Origin: Escherichia phage bob
Sequence record: NC_073072.1
Reading direction: 5' to 3' (one strand)
DNA length: 45,256 bases
Shown: positions 7,142 through 42,100 of the stretch, piece after piece
Numbering within the stretch: position 1 is the stretch's first letter
Layout of the letters: every line of letters starts with the position of its first letter
Program-made: the position numbers and the translations under genes
The notes under the pieces: generated by a model
Seen by the model: only the letters and a program-made list of their open reading frames with translations
Told to the model about the DNA's origin: nothing
Database searches by the model: none

Positions 7142-7175
7142 AAAGGGGCCGCATGGCCCCTTCTATTTATTTCTT
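7142..7175. terminator. bidirectional terminator between convergent genes
   Basis: AAAAA-GGGGCC-gcat-GGCCCC-TTCTATTTATTT. Confidence 0.6.
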
Positions 7176-19492: not shown

Positions 19493-19555
19493 TATGCAGT
19501 CCCCTTTTTTATGCAGTTGCCGATTGATATTGTATCAGCGATTTCAAAACAAACC

Positions 19556-19745
19556 TTATTCAGTCTCAGACGAGGGGGGCCATTGACCCCCGTCTAGTCT
19601 GAAAGACTGGGGTGCTGTCCCGCTGTCCCGATCGGCTGAAAACCGCGGCAGCACTGGCGGGGACGGGGTGCTGTCCCGTTTTGTCCCGCCCCTTGTTTGT
19701 CCCGCTTTCTGTCCCGCTTACTTTATGCAATAAAACTGCATAGGT
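19556..19745. repeat. copy A of a ~180-190 bp dispersed element (G-rich hairpin plus GTCCCG iterons)
   Basis: First ~75 bp TTATTCAGTCTCAGACGAGGGGGGCCAtTGACCCCCGTCTAGTCTGAAAGACTGGGGTGCTGTCCCGCTGTCCCG near-identical to 35971-36045; both copies end TTTATGCA..TTGCATA. Confidence 0.8.
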
Positions 19746-19764
19746 ATGCACATTTACAGGGCGT

Positions 19765-19874
19765 GACAAAACGGGACGTCCCGCCTGTCCCGCTTTGAGT
19801 TTATGCAATGAAAGTGATTAGATATGCGGTTTTACAGAGGCGGGACAAAACGGGACGTCCCGCCTGTCCCGCTT
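19765..19874. repeat. two perfect 31 bp direct repeats each containing the 12 bp palindrome CGGGACGTCCCG
   Basis: GACAAAACGGGACGTCCCGCCTGTCCCGCTT at 19765-19795 and 19844-19874, inside a ~79 bp imperfect tandem unit. Confidence 0.8.
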
Positions 19875-19876
19875 CA

Positions 19877-20553
19877 TTATGCGGGGTTCTGCTGCGCCAT
19901 CTCATCAAGCGCGATTCGTTCCATTAGCTTGATATCTTTAAACGCGCGCTGCTCGTTTTCGATACCGTGCATCTTAAATAACCACTCCAGCACGCCGTAG
20001 TCGATGCCGTATGCGCCACCAAATCCGGTGCGCCATTGCGTGGAGCAATCTGTGAAGACTGCGACTACCTTCGCGTTGTCGGGCCATAGCGCAACAGGTG
20101 GACAAACATCTTCGGGGGCCGCACCCCATAAACTTGCGGCTAAATCTTCGGAGGGTGGCGGCGGGCCATAAAAGCGTCGCGCCGCCTCAATTAGTTTTTT
20201 TCACGCAATCCCATCAGTTCGAGATAGTACGACGTGTGGAACACACCGAACGCGCGTGGGTAGTTGACCACCAGGCGGCGGACGTTCTCCGAGTTAAATT
20301 CGTCTGGCAGATTCCAGCCTTCCGCGACGTGCATGATGGCCTCGACCATAACGTTAAAGCCGTCCGGGTCATTGTCGTCATATTCCGACAGCTTTCGTTC
20401 GGTGTCCTGCATGGTTTGCGAAAATTCGTCGATCGGGCGGTGGCGGACGGTAAAAGTCATCTTGCCTGGTTCGTTCTCACCTGGGCGCGGGATCTCAATC
20501 GGCAGCTTAAAGGTCGGCTTAGGGTCAAGTGTAAAGAGTGGTGCTTTAGCCAT
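19877..20553 (-). CDS. tail assembly chaperone GT-like fusion product via programmed -1 frameshift (predicted)
   Basis: Slippery A_AAA_AAC at 20194-20200 (coding strand) as last codons of G; -1 frame open ~106 codons to TAA at 19877-19879 with no start codon for its first ~70 codons. Confidence 0.5.
20191..20553 (-). CDS. tail assembly chaperone (lambda G-like)
   Basis: 120 aa acidic protein between major tail and tape measure genes; ATG 20553 with GGAGAA RBS. Confidence 0.65.
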   Translation of the reverse strand: MAKAPLFTLDPKPTFKLPIEIPRPGENEPGKMTFTVRHRPIDEFSQTMQDTERKLSEYDDNDPDGFNVMVEAIMHVAEGWNLPDEFNSENVRRLVVNYPRAFGVFHTSYYLELMGLREKN

Positions 20554-25467: not shown

Positions 25468-25492
25468 ATTGGTTGCACTATATTGGTTGCAC
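25468..25492. promoter_or_regulatory. tandem pair of TATTGGTTGCA motifs in a divergent intergenic region
   Basis: Copies at 25468-25478 and 25482-25492, between scaffold gene start (25364) and plus-strand gene at 25514. Confidence 0.5.
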
Positions 25493-29343: not shown

Positions 29344-30729
29344 TTAGTAGAAATCTACGGTAGGAACAACGGCGATTGGACGAATCACAGGGAACAGGTG
29401 CGCAATTGGATAACCCGCGGCATCGTTCATGTGGTCCACACCGGCGGTTTTATCCGGCTCGCCTTTCTTCAGGTCGTAAACCTGCTGTTCCAGACATTTC
29501 GCTAGTGTAGGGCATTTATCCAGGTTGACAAAATACTGGCGCACGCCCTTCGAGTTGCACATCATCGTATTCATCGCGATCAATCGGTCTTTCACAGGCG
29601 GGTTAACGCTGTCGTATTCCACCTCGAAGCCCGCATCTTCCAGTTGCGCGATATCGGACGACGAAGCGTTAACCGTTTTGCGGGATTTGCCGCTGCTATC
29701 CGGGTACACGACAACACGACCGGCAGCGCAATGATCGGGGTAGCGCTCCTCGATCGCTTCAATCATAGCCGGGGTATCAAACAGGTCCACGAATTCATCC
29801 ACGGCGTGAATCTCGTCGCGGAACTCCTTGTTCTCGGTGGTACGCTGCCGTCTTACATACACGACCGCCGCCATTTTCGTGACGTTAAAGTCCATACCGA
29901 TAATCAGCGTGTCTTCCGGTTGTACTTCTTCGGTGCTGGCGTTCTCCTCGCGGTTGAACATCTTGTACACCGCGCCCGACGTAAGGTTAACAAACAGGCC
30001 GTTCAGGTACGCATCAATCAGGTTAGCCGGGTACTGACTGCGCAGCGTGTCGATAAAGTCTGCCGGTAGGTGGTGGTTATCGGTGGTCTTCGCCCGGATC
30101 AAACGTTTCTGGCTATCCTTCTCCACTTCGAAAATCTGGTACATCGCCCGGTAGCCTTCCGGGGTGGACACGATGACGAACTGGCGTACAAAGCCTGCAC
30201 GCAGACGACCGAGCAATTTGTGATACGCCGCCAGCGCAACGTCTTGCTTCGTGGTATCGAACTCGTCGGCAACAATCCACGCGGCGTTAACCCCGATCAG
30301 GCGGGTATAGTTCTCCATTGACTCGCAGATTACGCGCGTCCATTTTCCTTTCACCAGCACGCTATAAATCTTGTCCTGCTTGTTGAACTTCCACCGGAAG
30401 CCTGCCTCGTCGAAAGCCTTCTCCAGTTCCGGGTACATGATCTTAACCAGGAGTGGGATAGTCGGCTCGGTCACGATGCCGTCATGACCCGGATTCAGTG
30501 TCAGAAGCTGGATGACCTTACGTGCCGCGACCCATGACTTTCCGCCACCGAAGCCGGAACACAGGCCGAGTATTTTGGTCTTTGTGTCACGCAGTAGTTC
30601 CACCTGGTGCGGAAGGCAATCGGGCTGATACAGGCGGACGGCCTGCGCAACGCGTGTCGGTCGCGGCGGTCGATTTCGCTTTGCGATCGCCCGTTCGAGG
30701 GCGCGGTGTTCTGCCGCATAGTTACGCAT
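29344..30729 (-). CDS. terminase large subunit
   Basis: Walker A LGLCSGFGGGKSWV; 461 aa; ATGA overlap with upstream gene. Confidence 0.85.
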   Translation of the reverse strand: MRNYAAEHRALERAIAKRNRPPRPTRVAQAVRLYQPDCLPHQVELLRDTKTKILGLCSGFGGGKSWVAARKVIQLLTLNPGHDGIVTEPTIPLLVKIMYPELEKAFDEAGFRWKFNKQDKIYSVLVKGKWTRVICESMENYTRLIGVNAAWIVADEFDTTKQDVALAAYHKLLGRLRAGFVRQFVIVSTPEGYRAMYQIFEVEKDSQKRLIRAKTTDNHHLPADFIDTLRSQYPANLIDAYLNGLFVNLTSGAVYKMFNREENASTEEVQPEDTLIIGMDFNVTKMAAVVYVRRQRTTENKEFRDEIHAVDEFVDLFDTPAMIEAIEERYPDHCAAGRVVVYPDSSGKSRKTVNASSSDIAQLEDAGFEVEYDSVNPPVKDRLIAMNTMMCNSKGVRQYFVNLDKCPTLAKCLEQQVYDLKKGEPDKTAGVDHMNDAAGYPIAHLFPVIRPIAVVPTVDFY

Positions 30730-31280
30730 TATTCACCCTGGCCTTTGCCGGAAGGTTCGACAACTACGTCGCCGTTATCATCTTCGTCGTCATCCAGCGG
30801 TACATCGTCGCGGACGCCGTGGTTTGCTTTAAGCAGGAATGTAGCGAAGCCTGCCGCGATGGTCACACCACCGGCTTCCATCAGGAAAGTTTTCTGCAGT
30901 TCCATTGCGTCCGCCATCGCTTCGGCAAACTCCTCATGTGCTCGCGCCCAGCGGTACAGGCAAGCTACGCCTACGCCGATTTCAGCGGCAAATCGACCGA
31001 AGGTTGGCATTTTGTTGCGGGGGATTACTTGCGCAGCGCCTTTATCGGAGTAGTTTACCTGCCAGGCGTCGGCGTCGGCAAAATAGCGGCGAAGCTGGTC
31101 GCAGTAAACGGATCGGTAGTCAGTAGGGCGTCCACATTTTCCGCCTTTACGGCGCTTGCCGTACTCGATTTCAGGTCCGAGATTGGTGTGCTCGGTTTGC
31201 TCGCCTGGTTTACGGCGCGGGGTTACTGCTACTCGTCCGTCCAGTTTGGCGCGTCGGCCCTTAACTTTGATTTCTGCCAT
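30729..31280 (-). CDS. putative terminase small subunit
   Basis: ATG 31280 with AAAGGG RBS; basic N-terminus; directly upstream of and overlapping terminase large subunit. Confidence 0.5.
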   Translation of the reverse strand: MAEIKVKGRRAKLDGRVAVTPRRKPGEQTEHTNLGPEIEYGKRRKGGKCGRPTDYRSVYCDQLRRYFADADAWQVNYSDKGAAQVIPRNKMPTFGRFAAEIGVGVACLYRWARAHEEFAEAMADAMELQKTFLMEAGGVTIAAGFATFLLKANHGVRDDVPLDDDEDDNGDVVVEPSGKGQGE

Positions 31281-31410
31281 GATATAAGCCCTTTTGTTCA
31301 TATGCGCCGACCATCGGCAACATAGGAGACGGCCCTGCCATCTAAGTGGGATTATAACAGGCACAAAAAAGCCCACCAAATCGGCAGGCTGGGAGGATTA
31401 CTGGCTGCCG

Positions 31411-32695: not shown

Positions 32696-32714
32696 CTTAA
32701 TTACTCCTCTCGTT

Positions 32715-32750
32715 GATTGGTTGCAGTATGGCGTCTATGTTGGTTGCAAG
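32715..32750. promoter_or_regulatory. pair of TTGGTTGCA motifs
   Basis: GATTGGTTGCAG 32715-32726 and TGTTGGTTGCAAG 32738-32750, between lysis-cassette terminator and the tiny ORF/phosphatase gene. Confidence 0.5.
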
Positions 32751-32759
32751 TCAAGCAAT

Positions 32760-32790
32760 AAAAAGCCCGGTATTATCCGGGCTTGATTGT
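32760..32790 (-). terminator. rho-independent terminator ending the lysis cassette
   Basis: On minus strand AGCCCGG-ataata-CCGGGCT followed by TTTTATT. Confidence 0.55.
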
Positions 32791-32958
32791 TTACGCTGCG
32801 GGGCCGGGTTCTTCCGGCGGTGGCGGGCTTGGCAGCTTCGCGTCAAAGACGCCTGCATGGCTGATAGTGTCCGCGATGATAGCGCGTGCGCCAGGGTCTT
32901 CGGTTTTAGCCAGCGCGGCGAGCGCGTCAGCGTTATGATCAAGAATACTTTTTAACAT
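32791..32958 (-). CDS. small hydrophilic protein (55 aa), Pro-rich C-terminus
   Basis: ATG 32958 with GAGGTGA RBS; ends PSPPPPEEPGPAA; below track cutoff. Confidence 0.35.
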   Translation of the reverse strand: MLKSILDHNADALAALAKTEDPGARAIIADTISHAGVFDAKLPSPPPPEEPGPAA

Positions 32959-35177: not shown

Positions 35178-35443
35178 TTGCTCAGTCTCCAGTGTTTGCC
35201 TACCCGCTCAACGGCAGGCTTTCGGCGTAATGTAATACGAATCCCCATTGGTTGCAAGGAAGTCCGCACCCTGAAATCGTGTTGTGCTGCGAACTGGTGC
35301 AAGTAGCGAGTCTGCGTCAGTGGCTTTACGTCATCGCGATAGCACCAGTACACAGAATCCCCCACATTCGCATTCTTAGCCCATATTCGTATGCAATGCA
35401 GGGGAATATGCCACGAAAGCTGTTTTGCTCGTCTACGTCCCAT
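35174..35443 (-). CDS. hypothetical protein (89 aa)
   Basis: ATG 35443 with AAGGGG RBS; stop overlaps next start. Confidence 0.45.
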   Translation of the reverse strand: MGRRRAKQLSWHIPLHCIRIWAKNANVGDSVYWCYRDDVKPLTQTRYLHQFAAQHDFRVRTSLQPMGIRITLRRKPAVERVGKHWRLSK

Positions 35444-35452
35444 TTTGGCCCC

Positions 35453-35758
35453 TTATTTCGCAAGCTGGGTGAATAGCTCACGCTGGGCTTTAATCCTGGC
35501 GACGTTTGTCACTGCCTTATCGCCAATACCGAAGCGATATGCCAGGCGCTCGCGGGAGAATGCACGCGCGTATTCGTGGATTGCCTTCGCCAGCGTCTTC
35601 AGTTCGTCAAGGCTGGCATCAATGCCGTCGAGCGCATACATGATTGCCTGCTGGGCCAGTATTACTACATGCGCCGCGCGGTCTGCGTTGCCGTTCAGAG
35701 CCTTCGCTTCGTCCAGCTTCGCCAGGGCCATTGCGTAATTCCAGATTAATGCTCTCAT
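35453..35758 (-). CDS. hypothetical protein (101 aa), helical
   Basis: Natural ATG; first gene downstream of the 590 bp non-coding region. Confidence 0.55.
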   Translation of the reverse strand: MRALIWNYAMALAKLDEAKALNGNADRAAHVVILAQQAIMYALDGIDASLDELKTLAKAIHEYARAFSRERLAYRFGIGDKAVTNVARIKAQRELFTQLAK

Positions 35759-35779
35759 CGTTCAGTCCTCATGTTGGTG

Positions 35780-35821
35780 TGCAACCAATATAGCAAGGTG
35801 CCAGGGCGAATGCAACCAATA
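35780..35821. promoter_or_regulatory. pair of TGCAACCAAT motifs upstream of minus-strand gene 35758
   Basis: Copies at 35780-35790 and 35811-35821; a further TATTGGTTGCC at 35901-35911. Confidence 0.5.
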
Positions 35822-35970
35822 TTAATCACGCGCATGAAAAAGTTGATCGCTATCTGCTGCAACTGCAAACTGCGTTTTTCACTCAGCATAGTGCATCTCG
35901 TATTGGTTGCCTAGTTCATCCGCGACCGCACTTCACATCATGCTGCCGTGTATTTTGCAATCTCCGGATT

Positions 35971-36158
35971 TTATTCAGTCTCAGACGAGGGGGGCCACTG
36001 ACCCCCGTCTAGTCTGAAAGACTGGGGTGCTGTCCCGCTGTCCCGCTCCTCTGGAAGCCGCGCCATCCGGGGCGGGACGGGGGTGCTGTCCCGCTTTGTC
36101 CCGCCCCTAGTCTGTCCCGCTTTTTGTCCCGTTTGGTTTATGCAGTTTTATTGCATAA
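35971..36158. repeat. copy B of the ~180-190 bp dispersed element
   Basis: Same hairpin GACGAGGGGGGCCAcTGACCCCCGTC and six GTCCCG iterons; aligns with 19556-19745. Confidence 0.8.
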
Positions 36159-36182
36159 CTATTCATTACATCCACATTACAC

Positions 36183-36302
36183 GGCAACCAACGCGACTGG
36201 ATAAAAACACTCAAAATGGCAACCAATGCGCGCAAAATTTAGTCTTTTAGCGATATGGGAATCCACATATCGGCAACCAATGCGCGCAAAATTTAATCTT
36301 TT
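36183..36302. repeat. iteron-like direct repeats GGCAACCAA(T/C)GCG(CGCAAAATTTARTCTTTTA) next to an AT-rich tract; candidate replication origin
   Basis: Three copies starting 36183, 36217, 36271; the last two are 32 bp near-identical; AT-rich 36136-36180. Confidence 0.45.
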
Positions 36303-36345
36303 AAATCGTCATCGGTCGCCGAAAGCGTGATGGGTATATTCGTTT

Positions 36346-38634
36346 TTATGACAATATTCGACGACCCATAGATGGCTCCGGTGTGTGGGTCTGTATAAAA
36401 ACCGAGTACGCCGCGCTCGACCATATCGTCGATTGCCTTCGTCGATGTGCCACCTTTCGCAAGCCCAGCCTGGCGGACAATTGCCGATTTACTGAATCCG
36501 GTATGGTCCGGGTTATCTTCGATGTGCCACCTTTCGCAAGCCCAGCCTGGCGGACAATTGCCGATTTACTGAATCCGGTATGGTCCGGGTTATCTTCCAT
36601 CAGTTTTTCCAGCGCTGCATAAAGCACTTTCTCTTTTTCGTTGCGCGGTCCTGCTGCGTTCTCTTCCTTAACTGCTGCCTTGCCAGCGGCCTTCGCCTGT
36701 TCGATGGCGAACGGTGCCAGGGCGACCGGTACGAGGTAAAGAGTCTCGTCGCGTGGCGTGGAGGCAATTGGCTTGACGTCCCAACCGGCAACTACATCGC
36801 CGAAGTCCGGCCCGGTGCTGGTGGACTGGTGTGCCTCGAACGCCTCGGACTTGCGGAGATCCACCTTAACTTTGCACTTGAGCAGGACGAAGCCACGCGG
36901 CGCTTGCTTGATGCCGTTACGTGACTTCTCATGATACAGGTTCAATTGTCCGGGCTGGTTGTCGTCCGGCTGTTCCAGGAAGAACGCAGAATCGACAGCA
37001 CCATGCAGCGCGCCGGACCCGCGGGGAGATCTGCTGCCGTTTGAACCTTTCGCCGGGTGGTGGATGACGCCCGCACTGCCGCCTGTATTTTCCGCAATGG
37101 CCTTCAGCGCTTTGACCACTTCGCCCATATCGCTGGCGTTGTTCTCGTCGAACGGTTTTGCATCGGCGGACCGCAGCGCAACAGTCTGGTTGAGTGAGTC
37201 GAACGCCACCAGGCCAACCGGCTCGCCGTTAGCGGTGCGGTTGATGAAGCTGATAACTTCACGCAAGCCAGATTTGCTGGTGATATCCCATCCGCGTGAT
37301 TGCAGATCGATAATGTGCAGCTTGTCCAGGTCGTGCTCATATTTGATCTGCAGTGCTTCTTTACGCTGGTTGGAGGCCTCACCACCTTCCGCATCGAAAT
37401 AGAAGCAATGAGACTGGACGACCTTCGCACCGCCGAACGGAATACCGGCAGATACTGACGCCATCTGGCCCAGCACGTAGAACGACTTGCCAATGTTCGA
37501 TTCGCCAGCCATATACCAGGTCGATTTGAAGTTGACCAGGCCTTCGATGATCGGGTCGTGCTTACTGAACAGTGCGACCGGCTCGTTGTCCAGGTCTGCA
37601 TCAGTACACACGCCGTACTCGTCGCCGTCTCCGACCGCATCAACGATATGTTCATAGCACGATTCCACTTCCTCATCGTCCAGTCCCGGAAGGATGGCGG
37701 CGATTTGCTTACGTGACATGTTGTGCGGCTCGACGTTCAGGTGGTCCGGGATCCCGATAAGACGTAGCGCCAGGTGCTGGTGTCTGTTCAGTTCCGAGCA
37801 ACACTCGTTGCCGGTGTGCATACACTTGAAACGGATCTCGCCATCCTTAACCATGATAGCGGTGGACCCTTCGCCGCTGTGCAGGTGTTCGTTCGGGCAT
37901 GGCACTTCATAACCACGACCAGACGACAGCGGTTCGAATCCCGCCTGGAAGCACCAATCCAGAATACCGTCCGCCACACCATCATCGCCCTGGGTCAGTT
38001 CGCGGCGTACTTCCTCTTTCTCGACTCCCAGCTTGTCCGCCAGGCGGAGAAGACGACGGACGCGGGCGCGCTTGCCGTAGTGGCACTTAACGACAGACTG
38101 CTGATGTGGCAGGTACATAAGGCGGTTTGTGTCTTTTGTACAGTCGTCGAAGTCCACATCTGACAGACCAAGTTGGTGTAATAGCGCATACTGGACACGG
38201 CCCAGGTCTTCAGCCGGTACAGGCTTGTCCGTGAGTACCAGGAATCGAGCGCAACGCGTGCCGCCTTTCAGCGGGTGGCGGTCGCCGGTTGTGGTGTGAA
38301 ATACGTGCTCCAGCCCCGCGTCGATGAAAGCCTTACGGCAGCGGCGTAGGGTGCGGGTGTCGGTACGGTCAATATCGAAGAACAGGATCGAGCGGTCCAC
38401 CGCACTGGTCTTGCGGCGTAAGCCGTCACTGGTATACGCTACGATGCCATCGGCCTTACGCTTGCGGCGCGCATACTCGGCTTTATCTTCCGTCTTGTTG
38501 ATATGCACCGACGATATCTCTTTCGCATCTTTGATAAATTCGAAAAATTCATCGGTCGTCATCCGGAAGTTTTCCGCCCTGGCTTTTTCGCCTTTTTTAG
38601 CGGGTCGTGTTACAGCGAATTTAATTAAGCTCAT
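36346..38634 (-). CDS. primase-helicase (AEP-type primase N-terminus, Zn-binding middle, P-loop helicase C-terminus), with an altered C-terminal tail
   Basis: 762 aa; FFDIDRTD primase-like, CPNEHLHSGE...CMHTGNEC, Walker A GESNIGKS, Walker B LVAFDSL; 3' end carries a 77 bp tandem duplication. Confidence 0.8.
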   Translation of the reverse strand: MSLIKFAVTRPAKKGEKARAENFRMTTDEFFEFIKDAKEISSVHINKTEDKAEYARRKRKADGIVAYTSDGLRRKTSAVDRSILFFDIDRTDTRTLRRCRKAFIDAGLEHVFHTTTGDRHPLKGGTRCARFLVLTDKPVPAEDLGRVQYALLHQLGLSDVDFDDCTKDTNRLMYLPHQQSVVKCHYGKRARVRRLLRLADKLGVEKEEVRRELTQGDDGVADGILDWCFQAGFEPLSSGRGYEVPCPNEHLHSGEGSTAIMVKDGEIRFKCMHTGNECCSELNRHQHLALRLIGIPDHLNVEPHNMSRKQIAAILPGLDDEEVESCYEHIVDAVGDGDEYGVCTDADLDNEPVALFSKHDPIIEGLVNFKSTWYMAGESNIGKSFYVLGQMASVSAGIPFGGAKVVQSHCFYFDAEGGEASNQRKEALQIKYEHDLDKLHIIDLQSRGWDITSKSGLREVISFINRTANGEPVGLVAFDSLNQTVALRSADAKPFDENNASDMGEVVKALKAIAENTGGSAGVIHHPAKGSNGSRSPRGSGALHGAVDSAFFLEQPDDNQPGQLNLYHEKSRNGIKQAPRGFVLLKCKVKVDLRKSEAFEAHQSTSTGPDFGDVVAGWDVKPIASTPRDETLYLVPVALAPFAIEQAKAAGKAAVKEENAAGPRNEKEKVLYAALEKLMEDNPDHTGFSKSAIVRQAGLAKGGTSKITRTIPDSVNRQLSARLGLRKVAHRRRQSTIWSSAAYSVFIQTHTPEPSMGRRILS
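36443..36596. repeat. perfect 77 bp tandem duplication inside the primase-helicase coding region
   Basis: 36443-36519 and 36520-36596 are identical; 77 is not a multiple of 3, so the second-read copy is translated in a shifted frame. Confidence 0.85.
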
Positions 38635-38644
38635 TGCCGTTGCC

Positions 38645-38974
38645 TTACTTAGAAGTTTTATTATTGCGTACCCAGGAGCGCACTGTGCTCTGATTAATTC
38701 CGGTCAACTCGGCAATCATCGCCCAGGATTTGCCCTCGGCGCGCAAACGGATAACCTGTTTTTTGTATTCTTCCATTTCTTCATTGTGCTTTTGCAGCTT
38801 GCTTGCTGCCGTGCCGTTGAGCAATTCCAGCCTGGCGCGTAATTCTTTTTCGGTAAGTCGCAGACGTTCGATTTCAAATAGCACCGCACCCACGGCATCG
38901 GTATACGCCCAAGACCGGCTTGTCTCACTGCAAACAGTCTTAGTTAACATTTCGATTGCGTCGTCGATATTCAT
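38645..38974 (-). CDS. HTH DNA-binding protein (putative regulator)
   Basis: 109 aa; C-terminal KSWAMIAELTGINQSTVRSWV helix-turn-helix; GGAG RBS; first gene of the leftward early operon. Confidence 0.6.
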   Translation of the reverse strand: MNIDDAIEMLTKTVCSETSRSWAYTDAVGAVLFEIERLRLTEKELRARLELLNGTAASKLQKHNEEMEEYKKQVIRLRAEGKSWAMIAELTGINQSTVRSWVRNNKTSK

Positions 38975-39104
38975 TTTTCTGTCTCCGGTTGGTTAATGAC
39001 CAACGAAACTACACCTAAAACCGCAGGGTGTCAACTTCTTTGGAATATTGAAACGGGCGCGCACGCGTGTAATAATACTCCCGTCTCATTGTCTCTTATT
39101 GGTT

Positions 39105-39140
39105 AGCGCCGTCGCATTTTGCTTCGGCGCTTTTTTTTTT
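39105..39140 (+). terminator. hairpin plus T10 tract (terminator-like, or UP-element-like T-tract for the adjacent promoter)
   Basis: AGCGCCG-(13 nt loop)-CGGCGCT then T10 at 39131-39140, 12-21 bp upstream of the -35. Confidence 0.4.
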
Positions 39141-39151
39141 GAAATTAGTTG

Positions 39152-39181
39152 TTGACACCCATCCTGCAACCAATCTATTAT
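39152..39181 (+). promoter_or_regulatory. sigma70-type early promoter (TTGACA-18-TATTAT)
   Basis: Consensus -35 TTGACA at 39152-39157, -10 TATTAT at 39176-39181; a GCAACCAAT motif lies in the spacer. Confidence 0.6.
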
Positions 39182-39377
39182 TCACCCCGTCGACAGGATG
39201 CAGGACGCAAACTGGAGAGGGGCAACGCAGGGGCCGGATCGAAGTGTCAGGATTCCCAACCGTGATTATATAACCCGGTCCACTACCCGAACGGGAGAAC
39301 GCGCAACCGGGCAATATGTTAAGGCCACCGACGAAGTTAACTGCCGACACCTAAACTTAACCAATCGGAGATATACC

Positions 39378-39899
39378 ATGTTTGAGCAAATCGTAAACCT
39401 GATCACTCGCGGCGTAGTAGCACTGGAAACCATCGCTAAGCATTATGAAACCGTTGGCGCTGCCGTTGGTAAACAGGAAGATAAGAAGCCGTCTAAGGCG
39501 AAAAAAGAAGTTGTCGAAGATGACGACGATGAAGCTGAAGACGAAAAACCGGCTAAATCTAAAAAAGCACCGGCGAAAGGTAAGGCTAAAAAAGAAGTCG
39601 TAGAAGATGACGACGACGATGCCGAAGACGATGCCGAAGACGAAAAACCGGCTAAGTCTAAAAAAGCGAAAGGCAAAGGTAAGAAAGATGCCGATCCGCT
39701 GGCGGAGATGCGCGACGAAATCAAACAGTATGCCGCGATTATTGCGGGTGGTGATGACGACGACGCGAACGACGAATTCGACGACCTGCTGGAATCGTTC
39801 GAGATCAAATCAATCGCCAAGCTGGAAGATGACGACGTCGAAGACTTCCACAAAGAGCTAAAAGAAATCGTCGAAACCTATTTCGAACTGGAAGATTAA
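39378..39899 (+). CDS. highly acidic low-complexity repeat protein (first gene of rightward early operon)
   Basis: ATG 39378 with GGAG RBS; repeats KKEVVEDDDDEAEDEKPAKSKKA; an in-frame upstream ATG at 39198 is a possible alternative start. Confidence 0.6.
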   Translation: MFEQIVNLITRGVVALETIAKHYETVGAAVGKQEDKKPSKAKKEVVEDDDDEAEDEKPAKSKKAPAKGKAKKEVVEDDDDDAEDDAEDEKPAKSKKAKGKGKKDADPLAEMRDEIKQYAAIIAGGDDDDANDEFDDLLESFEIKSIAKLEDDDVEDFHKELKEIVETYFELED

Positions 39900-41775: not shown

Positions 41776-42010
41776 AGTATTTGCAATCTTATTGATGTTT
41801 GTTATCGGCGCGCTGGGCTTTATCCTGAATTGTGTGCAAGGCGTGTTAATGGTGGCGTGGATGGTTCGACATCCGACCCGCTGGCTGGATGACGGTTATA
41901 GCGAAGCTGCCGCCGATTGGGTGGAGAAGAACATCGACCGCCCGCCGTTAAGCTGGATCGAGAACGCCACCAACTACGTGACCAGAAATCTTTTTAATGA
42001 AAATGCTTGA
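41768..42010 (+). CDS. small membrane protein (80 aa)
   Basis: TMD FAILLMFVIGALGFIL; start overlaps upstream gene end. Confidence 0.5.
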   Translation: MNKVFAILLMFVIGALGFILNCVQGVLMVAWMVRHPTRWLDDGYSEAAADWVEKNIDRPPLSWIENATNYVTRNLFNENA

Positions 42011-42100
42011 CCGCTTAGGCGCAACCAAGTAGATTAGCAACCAAGCCGGACGGGGTGGCTTCCAATAACCCCGATACATGTGAAAATGAGGAATTGGAAA

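What the first reader, a model, noticed from the sequence alone, without database searches (positions are those of the whole stretch)
36160..36345. Iteron-rich, AT-rich region at the 3' flank of the primase-helicase gene: candidate replication origin
The 590 bp non-coding stretch 35759-36345 is the largest in the genome. Next to copy B of the dispersed element it holds three direct repeats starting GGCAACCAA(T/C)GCG (36183, 36217, 36271), two extended to a 32 bp near-identical unit GGCAACCAATGCGCGCAAAATTTA(G/A)TCTTTTA, and an AT-rich tract (36136-36180). Iterons plus an AT-rich unwinding element beside the replication initiator gene is the classic origin architecture.
Basis: inference. Interest (0 to 1): 0.55.

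Follow-up and report, generated by a model that had tools for sequence, protein, structure and literature searches.

The report
Candidate phage origin beside primase-helicase gene
The repeats are real and sit in a strongly conserved non-coding stretch just after the replication gene of an E. coli phage (Dhillonvirus). It looks like a replication start site, but the repeated word is also used at promoters all over the genome, so it is not a private origin signal.

Summary
The window is a Dhillonvirus genome (95.9% to phage JLBYU37). The three GGCAACCAAYGCG repeats and the 71% AT tract exist, with two start coordinates off by one.

Four corrections apply:
- The 8-mer core TTGGTTGC occurs 22 times genome-wide against 1.3 expected, mostly on sigma-70-like promoters. 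It is not origin-private.
- The two 32-nt units come from a 54-nt indel present in 9 of 18 relatives. Copy number is 1-3.
- The ORF end at 36346 results from a unique 77-nt tandem duplication, probably an assembly artefact. The real stop is 36293-36295, inside the distal repeat.
- Cumulative GC skew bottoms at 39408, a strand-switch point, not here.

The origin idea still gains comparative support. Six sister lineages (46-50% protein identity) keep a 290-645 nt gap after the primase-helicase gene with TTGGnnGC-family repeats. The non-coding DNA is better conserved than the next gene. The protein ends in a predicted winged helix.

The AT-rich palindrome and the invariant GCGGGACA array at 36030-36158 look like the core.

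Verdict: plausible but unproven origin, a new member of a known kind. Confidence is about 0.45.

The parts
36183..36196 (-).
   Evidence: 12 of 14 columns invariant in 18 genomes. It lies 35 nt from the next copy.
36218..36249 (-). Middle 32-nt unit holding a TTGGTTGCC site
   Evidence: Present in 17 of 18 relatives and missing in L008.
36250..36271 (.). Degenerate 22-nt palindrome (CGATATGGGAATTCCCATATCG in relatives) in the centre of the 54-nt indel
   Evidence: Present only in the 9 of 18 genomes that carry the indel.
36272..36303 (-). Distal 32-nt unit with a TTGGTTGCC site. It overlaps the true stop codon (36293-36295) and the last codons of the primase-helicase gene.
   Evidence: It belongs to the 54-nt indel.
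36136..36182 (.). AT-rich tract with the hairpin TTATGCA-N7-TGCATAA (36138-36158) and an ATATAAT-like element in relatives. Candidate melting or priming site.
   Evidence: 71% AT. The stem is invariant, and the loop is inverted in 7 of 18 relatives. GTGAATAGTTATGCA is shared with Salmonella phage FSL SP-031.
36030..36135 (-). Array of GCGGGACA repeats: six in the coding orientation, one inverted, and a seventh forward copy that is degenerate (ACGGGACA)
   Evidence: The motifs are invariant while the spacers vary. A second array lies at 19617-19872.
35985..36029 (-). Conserved double hairpin (AGTCTTTCAGACT, then AGACGGGGG-loop-CCCCCCTCGTCT)
   Evidence: Stems are near-invariant and loops vary across 16 variants. 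The core folds with z = -3.06 as single-stranded DNA.
35899..35911 (+). Inverted TTGGTTGCC site on the far side of the core
   Evidence: 11 of 13 columns are invariant.
35780..35824 (-). Sigma-70-like promoter of the next gene: TTGCAT (35810-35815), a 17-nt spacer, and TATATT (35787-35792). One TTGGTTGC site overlaps the -35 element and one follows the -10 element.
   Evidence: hexamers and spacer length are conserved while the spacer sequence varies. Read by eye; the strict scan does not list it.
36293..38634 (-). Primase-helicase gene: AAA_25/RepA-type helicase core and a C-terminal winged helix. The window copy carries the 77-nt duplication.
36439..36592 (.). 77-nt exact tandem duplication that frameshifts the gene's winged-helix end
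   Evidence: The junction is absent from IMG/VR and from all 151 phage records that match.
19493..19877 (-). 'Region A': a paralogous copy about 210 nt long of the AT hairpin, GCGGGACA array and double hairpin, with two extra 79-nt units

Best explanation
The segment 36160-36345 is the gene-proximal arm of a cis-acting element about 530 bp long (35759-36292). This is 'region B' of the Sodalis phage SO-1 GenBank record. It follows the primase-helicase gene directly and is most likely the phage's replication origin, or one of two.

Proposed mechanism:
- Inferred: a phage DNA-binding protein binds the ATTGGTTGCC sites on both flanks of the core. There are 1-3 sites on the gene side, one inverted site at 35899-35911, and two at the next promoter. 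The prime candidate is the primase-helicase itself, through its C-terminal winged helix.
- Inferred: the invariant GCGGGACA array (36030-36135) binds the same or a second factor.
- Inferred: the AT-rich palindrome (36138-36158) between them melts or extrudes. The RepA-type helicase then loads and the primase domain primes.
- Inferred: the same 8-mer sits inside about eight sigma-70-like promoters elsewhere, including the early divergent promoters. The binding protein would therefore also act as a transcription regulator, much as SV40 T antigen uses its origin sites to repress its early promoter.

Shown here: the repeats, their conservation and copy-number variation, the genome-wide spread of the motif, the clade-wide synteny, and the predicted winged-helix fold.

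Not shown: protein binding, DNA melting, and initiation of replication.
For: - Position. All six sister lineages (46-50% protein identity) have small HTH gene, then primase-helicase, then a 290-645 nt gap.
- Motif family. Every gap carries repeats of a TTGGnnGC-type motif at or overlapping the gene's 3' end: TTGGTTGC, TTGGCAGC, TTGGCTGC or TTGGCCGC. In L090 all 5 copies lie in the gap, with 0 elsewhere in 17.7 kb. In L093, 5 of 6 lie in or at the gap.
- Co-variation. In L092 the variant motif also appears next to -10-like hexamers at two other intergenic sites, so gap sites and promoter-type sites change together.
- Distant relatives. Firmicute-type relatives (22-28% identity) show 2-9 private direct repeats, then a TATATA element, then a long hairpin right after the gene.
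- Purifying selection. Columns 36196-35780 score 0.86-0.97 mean conservation, against 0.75 in the downstream ORF.
- AT core. The tract is 71% AT. GTGAATAGTTATGCA is shared with FSL SP-031. The core folds with z = -3.06.
- Replicase. The C-terminal 125 residues model as helix-helix-helix-strand-strand with core pLDDT 80-90. All top structural matches are winged-helix DNA binders.
- Binder candidate. The small upstream HTH gene is not homologous between Dhillonvirus and L089, although both use TTGGTTGC. That leaves the winged helix as the conserved DNA-binding domain nearby.
- Precedents. The pRN1 origin is a structured element 3' of its primase-helicase-winged-helix gene (PMC4234260). The Sfi21 origin is a 302-bp non-coding region 3' of its primase gene (PMC6356513; PMC13575424).
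Against: - No replication data exist for any Dhillonvirus in the searched literature.
- Cumulative G-C has its minimum at 39408 and maximum at 7148, the two strand-switch points. There is no inflection at 36.2 kb.
- The motif is not private: 22 copies, mostly on promoters.
- Copy number next to the gene varies from 1 to 3, and orientation differs in L018.
- The AT tract is one of about ten equally unstable segments.
- Which motif the winged helix binds, TTGGTTGC or GCGGGACA, is unresolved. The fold matches are weak, with E no better than 0.016.
- The Sfi21 and pRN1 replicases are not sequence homologues of this one, so those parallels are by position only.
Confidence: 0.45

Rival explanations
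1. The element only controls transcription. The TTGGTTGCC copies are extra operators of a genome-wide phage regulator. At the end of the early operon they act as a roadblock, a looping partner or a sink that separates early genes (HTH, primase-helicase) from the middle and late genes that start at the 35817-35787 promoter. Replication starts elsewhere.
For: - 16 of 20 sites in JLBYU37 are intergenic or at gene borders, and they overlap -35 elements, spacers or the bases just after -10 hexamers.
- One site lies in the spacer of the early rightward promoter TTGACA-18-TATTAT and inside a promoter annotated in HK578.
- In L092 the variant motif also follows a -10-like TAATAT.
- The GC-skew minimum lies at the divergent promoter region.
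Against: - The three sites in 36160-36345 have no usable promoter around them. The scan found none, and the spacing to the ATATAAT-like element is 5-6 nt too short.
- In L090 and L093 the motif is nearly confined to the gap after the replicase gene.
- The element has a paralogue inside the tail operon, and in L089 a second copy after a head gene. This is odd for an operon-specific switch.
- No intrinsic terminator was found on the coding strand.
Confidence: 0.3
2. Regions A and B are copies of a repeat module with another DNA-level role, such as a recombination hot spot, a packaging or condensation signal, a decoy for host defence, or a selfish insertion. The TTGGTTGCC copies are merely neighbours.
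For: - There are two paralogous modules about 210 nt long per genome, in unrelated gene contexts.
- The hairpin loop is inverted between relatives and between A and B, which points to cruciform-mediated recombination.
- L089 also has two clusters.
- The SO-1 record lists both only as repeat regions.
Against: - Both copies are present in nearly all of the 157 matching records, with invariant motifs, so they are not recent mobile insertions.
- One copy always abuts the replicase gene across the clade.
- The terminase genes lie far away (29344-31379), which argues against a pac or cos role.
Confidence: 0.12
3. The two long 32-nt units have no function of their own. They are a neutral 54-nt tandem duplication around a palindrome, and only the proximal site matters.
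For: The indel is absent from 9 of 18 relatives. L008 lacks the middle copy as well. Column conservation is 0.36-0.63 across 36303-36218, against 0.96 for the proximal site.
Against: - Within the carriers the duplicated sites stay intact (TTGGTYGCC in all).
- The divergent L018 keeps three copies in another arrangement, which suggests selection for more than one site.
Confidence: 0.5

Closest known systems
pRN1 (Sulfolobus plasmid) replication operon orf56/orf904 and its downstream origin
   Same: A small DNA-binding protein gene is followed by a multifunctional primase-helicase with a C-terminal winged helix, then by a structured non-coding element directly 3' of that gene. In pRN1 this element is required for replication (PMC4234260).
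   Different: - ORF904 has a prim-pol domain and an SF3 helicase. The helicase core here is AAA_25/RepA-like.
- The pRN1 origin is one 100-nt stem-loop without iterons. Here there are short hairpins plus two kinds of repeats.
- No sequence homology was shown.
Phage P4 alpha protein with ori and crr
   Same: A primase-helicase binds origin repeats through a C-terminal winged helix (as summarised in PMC4234260). From memory, two separated clusters of the same octamer (ori and crr) are both needed in cis, and crr consists of two direct repeats. This resembles regions A and B with GCGGGACA and the 79-nt tandem units of region A.
   Different: - P4 alpha has a Toprim primase and an SF3 helicase.
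- The ori/crr details come from memory and were not checked here (searches gave nothing usable).
Streptococcus phage Sfi21 origin (302-bp non-coding 'phage inhibitory sequence')
   Same: It is a non-coding region directly 3' of the primase gene, with short repeats flanking a very AT-rich tract. It is annotated as an origin in NC_000872 and is described as origin-like and as conferring resistance at high copy (PMC6356513).
   Different: The primase is not homologous. The motif and host differ. No promoter-associated reuse of its repeats is known to me.
IncQ plasmid RSF1010 oriV (RepA helicase, RepB' primase, RepC iteron binder)
   Same: The helicase core gives a sub-threshold match to RSF1010 RepA (1g8y, E = 0.87). 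The origin has iterons, an AT-rich region and hairpins used for priming (summary in PMC4234260).
   Different: RSF1010 uses three separate proteins, whereas this phage has one fused protein. Its iterons are private to oriV.
SV40 large T antigen and its origin/early promoter
   Same: This is a functional analogy only: an initiator-helicase whose origin sites also repress its own early promoter (general knowledge).
   Different: The proteins and hosts are unrelated. Binding has not been shown here.

Membership tests
Iteron-type replication origin | Three or more direct repeats of an initiator-binding site in one cluster | tested here: inconclusive
   The window has three copies spaced 35 and 54 nt apart. 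Relatives have 1-3, and orientation differs in L018.
Iteron-type replication origin | Repeats confined to the origin and its control loci | tested here: not met
   The core occurs 22 times genome-wide against 1.3 expected, at conserved positions mostly on promoters. It is near-private in sister lineages L090 and L093.
Iteron-type replication origin | Adjacent AT-rich unwinding element | tested here: met
   36136-36180 is 71% AT with dG -51.4 against a mean of -65.0 kcal/mol. It is, however, only the 8th least stable window.
Iteron-type replication origin | Initiator binds the repeats, and the fragment supports replication | not testable with these tools
   This needs gel-shift or footprinting experiments and a plasmid or marker-frequency assay.
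Replication-associated strand asymmetry at the origin | Cumulative GC-skew minimum at the site | tested here: not met
   The minimum is at 39408 and the maximum at 7148, both strand-switch points. The test is confounded by transcription direction.
pRN1/P4-type origin next to a primase-helicase-winged-helix gene | Replicase with primase, helicase and a C-terminal winged-helix domain | tested here: met
   - Helicase: AAA_25, E = 1.6e-19.
- Primase: only PHROG-level annotation.
- Winged helix: AF2 model with core pLDDT 80-90, and structural matches all in the winged-helix class but weak, E >= 0.016.
- The helicase class differs from the SF3 helicases of pRN1 and P4.
pRN1/P4-type origin next to a primase-helicase-winged-helix gene | Structured or repeat-bearing non-coding element directly 3' of the replicase gene, conserved among relatives | tested here: met
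Sigma-70 promoter within 36160-36345 | -35 and -10 hexamers 16-18 nt apart | tested here: not met
   The scan found none on either strand. By eye, the TTGGTT/TTGCCG to ATATAAT-like spacing is 15 or 11 nt.
Intrinsic terminator of the primase-helicase transcript | GC-rich hairpin followed by a T run on the coding strand | tested here: not met
   The only terminator-like site is at 36643-36659 on the + strand, inside the gene.
Known structured RNA (Rfam) | Match to a curated covariance model | tested here: not met
   No match at gathering score in the window or in 13 related loci, and none with E <= 1 in 35700-36400.
Small protein-coding gene in the gap | Conserved open reading frame | tested here: not met
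   Only ORFs of 26-55 aa occur. The alignment has 1-nt and 54-nt indels and loop inversions. ORFs annotated there in Bas84 and HK578 are not conserved.

The most novel reading that the evidence does not exclude
The replicative primase-helicase may recognise TTGGTTGC through its C-terminal winged helix both at the origin and inside about eight promoters, including the early divergent ones. One protein would then start replication and shut off or retune transcription, as a bacterial-virus counterpart of SV40 T antigen. Regions A and B would act as a paired origin/enhancer like P4 ori/crr.
Probability: 0.15. Interest if true: 0.7.

Novelty: new member of a known kind. Interest (0 to 1): 0.45.

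Why it matters
Dhillonviruses are among the most often isolated E. coli phages and are used in therapy and engineering work, yet their origin of replication is unmapped.

A defined origin would:
- make phage-dependent plasmid amplification possible;
- make origin-decoy resistance, as shown for Sfi21, possible;
- guide cleaner genome engineering.

The clade-wide pattern found here gives a directly testable model. The pattern is small HTH gene, then primase-helicase with a winged helix, then a gap with TTGGnnGC repeats, an AT palindrome and a lineage-specific array. It applies to a large group of enterobacterial siphoviruses, including Salmonella phage FSL SP-031 and its relatives.

The reuse of the same motif at promoters hints at coupling between replication and gene expression.

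Tried and rejected
- Literature. Searches for a Dhillonvirus origin and for the motif strings found nothing relevant. Searches for P4 ori/crr details gave no usable text.
- Known RNAs. Rfam and tRNA scans of the window, the gap and 13 related loci found nothing.
- Promoter and terminator scan of 35400-36700. It found no promoter and no coding-strand terminator.
- GC skew. Whole-genome skew and third-codon-position skew per minus-strand gene showed no step at 36.2 kb or 19.7 kb.
- Firmicute-type gap. A DNA search against phage records found no match.
- Sfi21 primase. It is not a homologue of this replicase.
- Replicase domains. Pfam and NCBIfam did not name the N-terminal or C-terminal domains. 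A PDB sequence search gave only a marginal RepA hit.
- Small upstream HTH protein as the conserved binder of TTGGTTGC. Rejected, because L089 shares the motif but has a non-homologous HTH_3 protein.
- Hairpin covariation. Stems are nearly invariant and loops vary, so no compensatory pairs could be counted.
- A fuzzy-regex anchor search timed out and was replaced by BLAST anchors.
- The full text of the SO-1 'region B ... possible ...' note could not be read, because the tool truncates it.

Full report
**Identity and gene map**

The window is a complete or near-complete Dhillonvirus genome, an E. coli siphovirus.
- The region 35400-36700 matches 157 phage records. The best is Escherichia phage JLBYU37 at 95.9%.
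- Transfer of the JLBYU37, SO-1 and HK578 annotations gives two divergent transcription units.
- The minus-strand unit runs from 38974 to 7167. Its order is small HTH protein, primase-helicase, the gap under study, small genes, lysis genes, terminase, head, tail and fibre.
- The plus-strand unit runs from 39198 across the window end to 7139. It holds a nuclease, a DUF2815 single-strand-binding protein, DNA polymerase A, a helicase and methyltransferases.

**The observation**

What holds up:
- GGCAACCAACGCG lies at 36183-36195. GGCAACCAATGCG lies at 36218-36230 and 36272-36284.
- The two 32-nt units (36218-36249 and 36272-36303) differ at one base.
- GCAACCAAYR occurs 14 times in the window against 0.47 expected.
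- The tract 36136-36180 is 71% AT against 45.5% genome-wide.

Four corrections are needed.

*1. Gene end.* The ORF end at 36346 is not the true gene end.
- An exact 77-nt tandem duplication (36439-36592) shifts the frame.
- The relatives' protein ends ...DDDLKD* at the position matching 36293-36295.
- The gap is therefore 35759-36292 (534 nt), and the distal unit overlaps the stop codon.
- The duplication junction is absent from IMG/VR. All 151 matching phage records align to it in two pieces.
- A 77-nt exact overlap is what a k=77 assembler leaves at the ends of a circular contig. An assembly artefact is the likeliest cause. This is inference.

*2. The motif is not local.*
- TTGGTTGC/GCAACCAA occurs 22 times in the window, and 19-22 times in four other Dhillonvirus genomes, against about 1.3 expected.
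- The positions are conserved among the five genomes.

*3. Variable copy number.*
- The two long units belong to a 54-nt indel. It consists of a 30-nt direct repeat flanking a 22-nt palindrome.
- It is present in 9 of 18 aligned genomes.
- The number of TTGGTYGCC sites between the stop codon and the AT hairpin is 3 in 9 genomes, 2 in 8 and 1 in 1.

*4. The AT tract is not unique.* It is the 8th least stable 45-nt window. At 200 nt, 36107-36306 ranks 4th.

**What the dispersed motif is**

Most copies outside the gap lie in intergenic DNA at the starts of transcription units. They overlap sigma-70-like hexamers in different registers and in both orientations. The promoter readings below are by eye, because the strict scan needs a better -35 element.
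- At the -35 element: TTGGTTGCTG-17-TATAGT at 1070, and TTGGTTGCAT-17-TATATT at 35812.
- Just after the -10 element: TATATTGGTTGCAC at 25483 and 35781.
- In the spacer: TTGACC-17-TAGATT at about 42010-42045, and the early rightward promoter TTGACA-18-TATTAT at 39145-39180.

Two further observations fit:
- For the promoter of the gene downstream of the gap, the alignment shows conserved hexamers, a fixed 17-nt spacer length and a variable spacer sequence.
- HK578's own annotation places a promoter over the site that corresponds to 39166.

This is the behaviour of an operator for a DNA-binding protein, not of a promoter element as such. The three copies in 36160-36345 have no usable promoter around them.

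**The rest of the gap**

Read on the coding (minus) strand, the gap holds in order:
- 1-3 ATTGGTTGCC sites;
- an AT-rich stretch with an ATATAAT-like element;
- the hairpin TTATGCA-N7-TGCATAA (36138-36158);
- GCGGGACA repeats (six exact in the coding orientation, a seventh degenerate, one inverted) at 36030-36135;
- a double hairpin at 35985-36029;
- an inverted TTGGTTGCC site at 35899-35911;
- the promoter of the next gene, with two more sites.

The non-coding columns 36196-35780 are better conserved than the downstream ORF. Mean column conservation is 0.86-0.97, with 36-86% of columns invariant. The ORF scores 0.75, with 20% invariant.

The GCGGGACA motifs are invariant while their spacers vary.

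The 7-nt hairpin loop reads ATAAAAC in 10 genomes and its reverse complement in 7. It is also inverted between regions A and B of this window.

The core folds as single-stranded DNA with z = -3.06.

A paralogue of the core about 210 nt long, 'region A' (19493-19877), lies between the tail-chaperone gene and the tape-measure gene. It has two extra 79-nt units.

The SO-1 GenBank record already lists both as repeat regions A and B with a note 'possible ...'. The tool truncates the rest of that note.

**Comparative evidence**

A protein search found sister lineages at 46-50% identity, among them Salmonella phage FSL SP-031. Six were fetched as L088-L093.

Synteny and the shared motif family:
- All six show small HTH gene, then primase-helicase, then a 290-645 nt gap, then small genes, lysis genes and terminase.
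- Each gap carries repeats of a TTGGnnGC-family motif at or overlapping the gene's 3' end.
- Dhillonvirus, L089 and L091 use TTGGTTGC.
- L090 uses GTTGGCAGC, with all 5 copies in the gap and none elsewhere in 17.7 kb.
- L093 and FSL SP-031 use GTTGGCTG(C).
- L092 uses GTTGGCCGC.
- In L090 and L092 two clusters in opposite orientation flank a core of 250-400 nt. In L093 four reverse copies are followed by a single forward copy.
- L091 has four copies inside the coding 3' end of the gene.
- In L092 the variant motif also follows -10-like hexamers at two other intergenic sites. Gap sites and promoter-type sites therefore co-vary.

A second, lineage-specific array accompanies the motif in most lineages:
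- GCGGGACA in Dhillonvirus;
- GGGGGAGA in FSL SP-031;
- TTGCGAGT in L089, with a second cluster about 10 kb away;
- TTGCGA in L092;
- GTGCGGAA in L091.

The AT-core string GTGAATAGTTATGCA is shared by Dhillonvirus and FSL SP-031.

More distant relatives (22-28% identity) sit in Sak4/SNF2-helicase/primase/RusA modules typical of Firmicute phages. They have 2-9 private direct repeats spaced 35-45 nt apart, then a CTTATATATAG element and a long hairpin, directly after the gene.

**The replicase**

- It has an AAA_25 (RepA/DnaB-like) core and a marginal match to RSF1010 RepA.
- It is filed by PHROGs as a replicative helicase-primase.
- An AlphaFold2 model of the last 125 residues used 26 diverse homologues. 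It gives helix, helix, helix, strand and strand, with pLDDT 80-90 in the core.
- Foldseek against the PDB returns only winged-helix DNA binders at the top: the MarR family, histone H1/H5, ORC and LexA. The E-values are weak, at 0.016 or higher.
- The small HTH gene upstream is HTH_23/sigma-region-4-like in Dhillonvirus. In the sister lineages it is a non-homologous Cro-type HTH_3 protein, although L089 and L091 share the TTGGTTGC motif.
- The winged helix is therefore the one DNA-binding domain near the element that is conserved wherever the motif family is.
- Which motif it binds remains unresolved. The lineage-specific arrays also change with the recognition-helix sequence.

**Checks that do not support the origin reading**

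- Cumulative G-C has its minimum at 39408 and its maximum at 7148. These are the two points where the coding strand switches. There is no inflection at 36.2 kb.
- Third-position skew of the minus-strand genes shows no step.
- The literature held here contains no origin mapping for Dhillonvirus.

**Interpretation**

The best reading is that 35759-36292 is an origin-type cis element. Several points favour this:
- its fixed position next to the replicase gene across a wide clade;
- strong purifying selection on non-coding DNA;
- two repeat families around an AT-rich palindrome;
- a replicase with its own predicted DNA-binding domain;
- experimentally supported origins in the same position in pRN1 (PMC4234260) and Sfi21 (PMC6356513; PMC13575424).

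The sites are part of a genome-wide operator-like set. Their number is not fixed. The invariant GCGGGACA array and the hairpin lie outside the given coordinates.

The main rival is a purely transcriptional role at the boundary between early and middle genes. Sequence alone cannot exclude it. A dual role, in which an initiator also regulates promoters, is the most interesting reading not excluded.

**Verdict**

This is a plausible but unproven origin of a known general kind, with some unusual features: shared promoter motif, paired modules and a flipping hairpin loop. Interest is 0.45.

Noticed in passing
window 36439-36592: An exact 77-nt tandem duplication lies inside the 3' end of the primase-helicase gene. 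It frameshifts the predicted winged-helix domain and moves the apparent stop from 36293 to 36346. It is unique among 151 phage records and absent from IMG/VR. It is probably a k=77 circular-assembly overlap left in after the genome was rotated.
   Followed up: yes
window 19493-19877: 'Region A' is a paralogue about 210 nt long of the AT hairpin, GCGGGACA array and double hairpin, with two extra 79-nt tandem units. It lies between the tail-chaperone gene and the tape-measure gene, an unusual place for 385 nt of non-coding DNA. L089 also has a second cluster of its own array motif, at L089 22100-22190.
   Followed up: partly
window 36138-36158 and 19733-19753; loci L001-L019: The 7-nt loop of the hairpin TTATGCA-N7-TGCATAA is inverted between close relatives (10 ATAAAAC, 7 GTTTTAT) and between regions A and B of the same genome, while the stem is invariant. 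This flip-flop suggests that the hairpin or cruciform forms in vivo.
   Followed up: partly
window 1070, 4006/4023, 5930/5942, 9349, 25469/25483, 32717/32740, 35781/35812, 39166, 42021/42037: TTGGTTGC sites, often in pairs, overlap sigma-70-like promoters at -35, in the spacer or just after -10, in both orientations. Their positions are conserved in five Dhillonvirus genomes. This looks like the operator set of an unidentified phage regulator.
   Followed up: partly
window 32712-32800, + strand: A promoter-like TTGATT-17-TATGTT followed by GGTTGCA and then a hairpin (AAGCCCGG...CCGGGCTT) with a weakly T-rich tail (GATTGTTT) lies antisense to the late-gene strand. It could encode a short antisense RNA. 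JLBYU37 lacks these two motif copies.
   Followed up: no
L091 4535-4656: Four GCAACCAA copies lie inside the coding 3' end of the primase-helicase gene, in the winged-helix region. The repeats are embedded in the replicase gene, as with lambda ori in gene O.
   Followed up: no
L020-L081 (for example L020 4996-5251, L037 4981-5210, L064 5443-5661): Distant primase-helicase relatives in Firmicute-type replication modules all have, right after the gene, 2-9 private direct repeats spaced 35-45 nt apart, a conserved CTTATATATAG element and a long hairpin whose sequence differs between lineages. No Rfam family matches.
   Followed up: partly
window 36250-36271; relatives L001-L017: The centre of the 54-nt indel is a perfect 22-nt palindrome in relatives (CGATATGGGAATTCCCATATCG, containing an EcoRI site). 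It is degenerate in this window.
   Followed up: no
window 38645-38974: The small protein encoded just upstream of the primase-helicase gene is annotated in databases as a transposase or resolvase. It only has an HTH_23 / sigma-70 region-4-like helix-turn-helix. In sister lineages a non-homologous Cro-type HTH_3 protein takes its place.
   Followed up: partly
window 38975-39197: The divergent early control region has the inverted repeat GGGTGTCAAC/GTTGACACCC, which supplies two TTGACA -35 elements, and a strong terminator-like hairpin with a T run at 39105-39140. The cumulative G-C minimum (39408) lies just to its right.
   Followed up: partly
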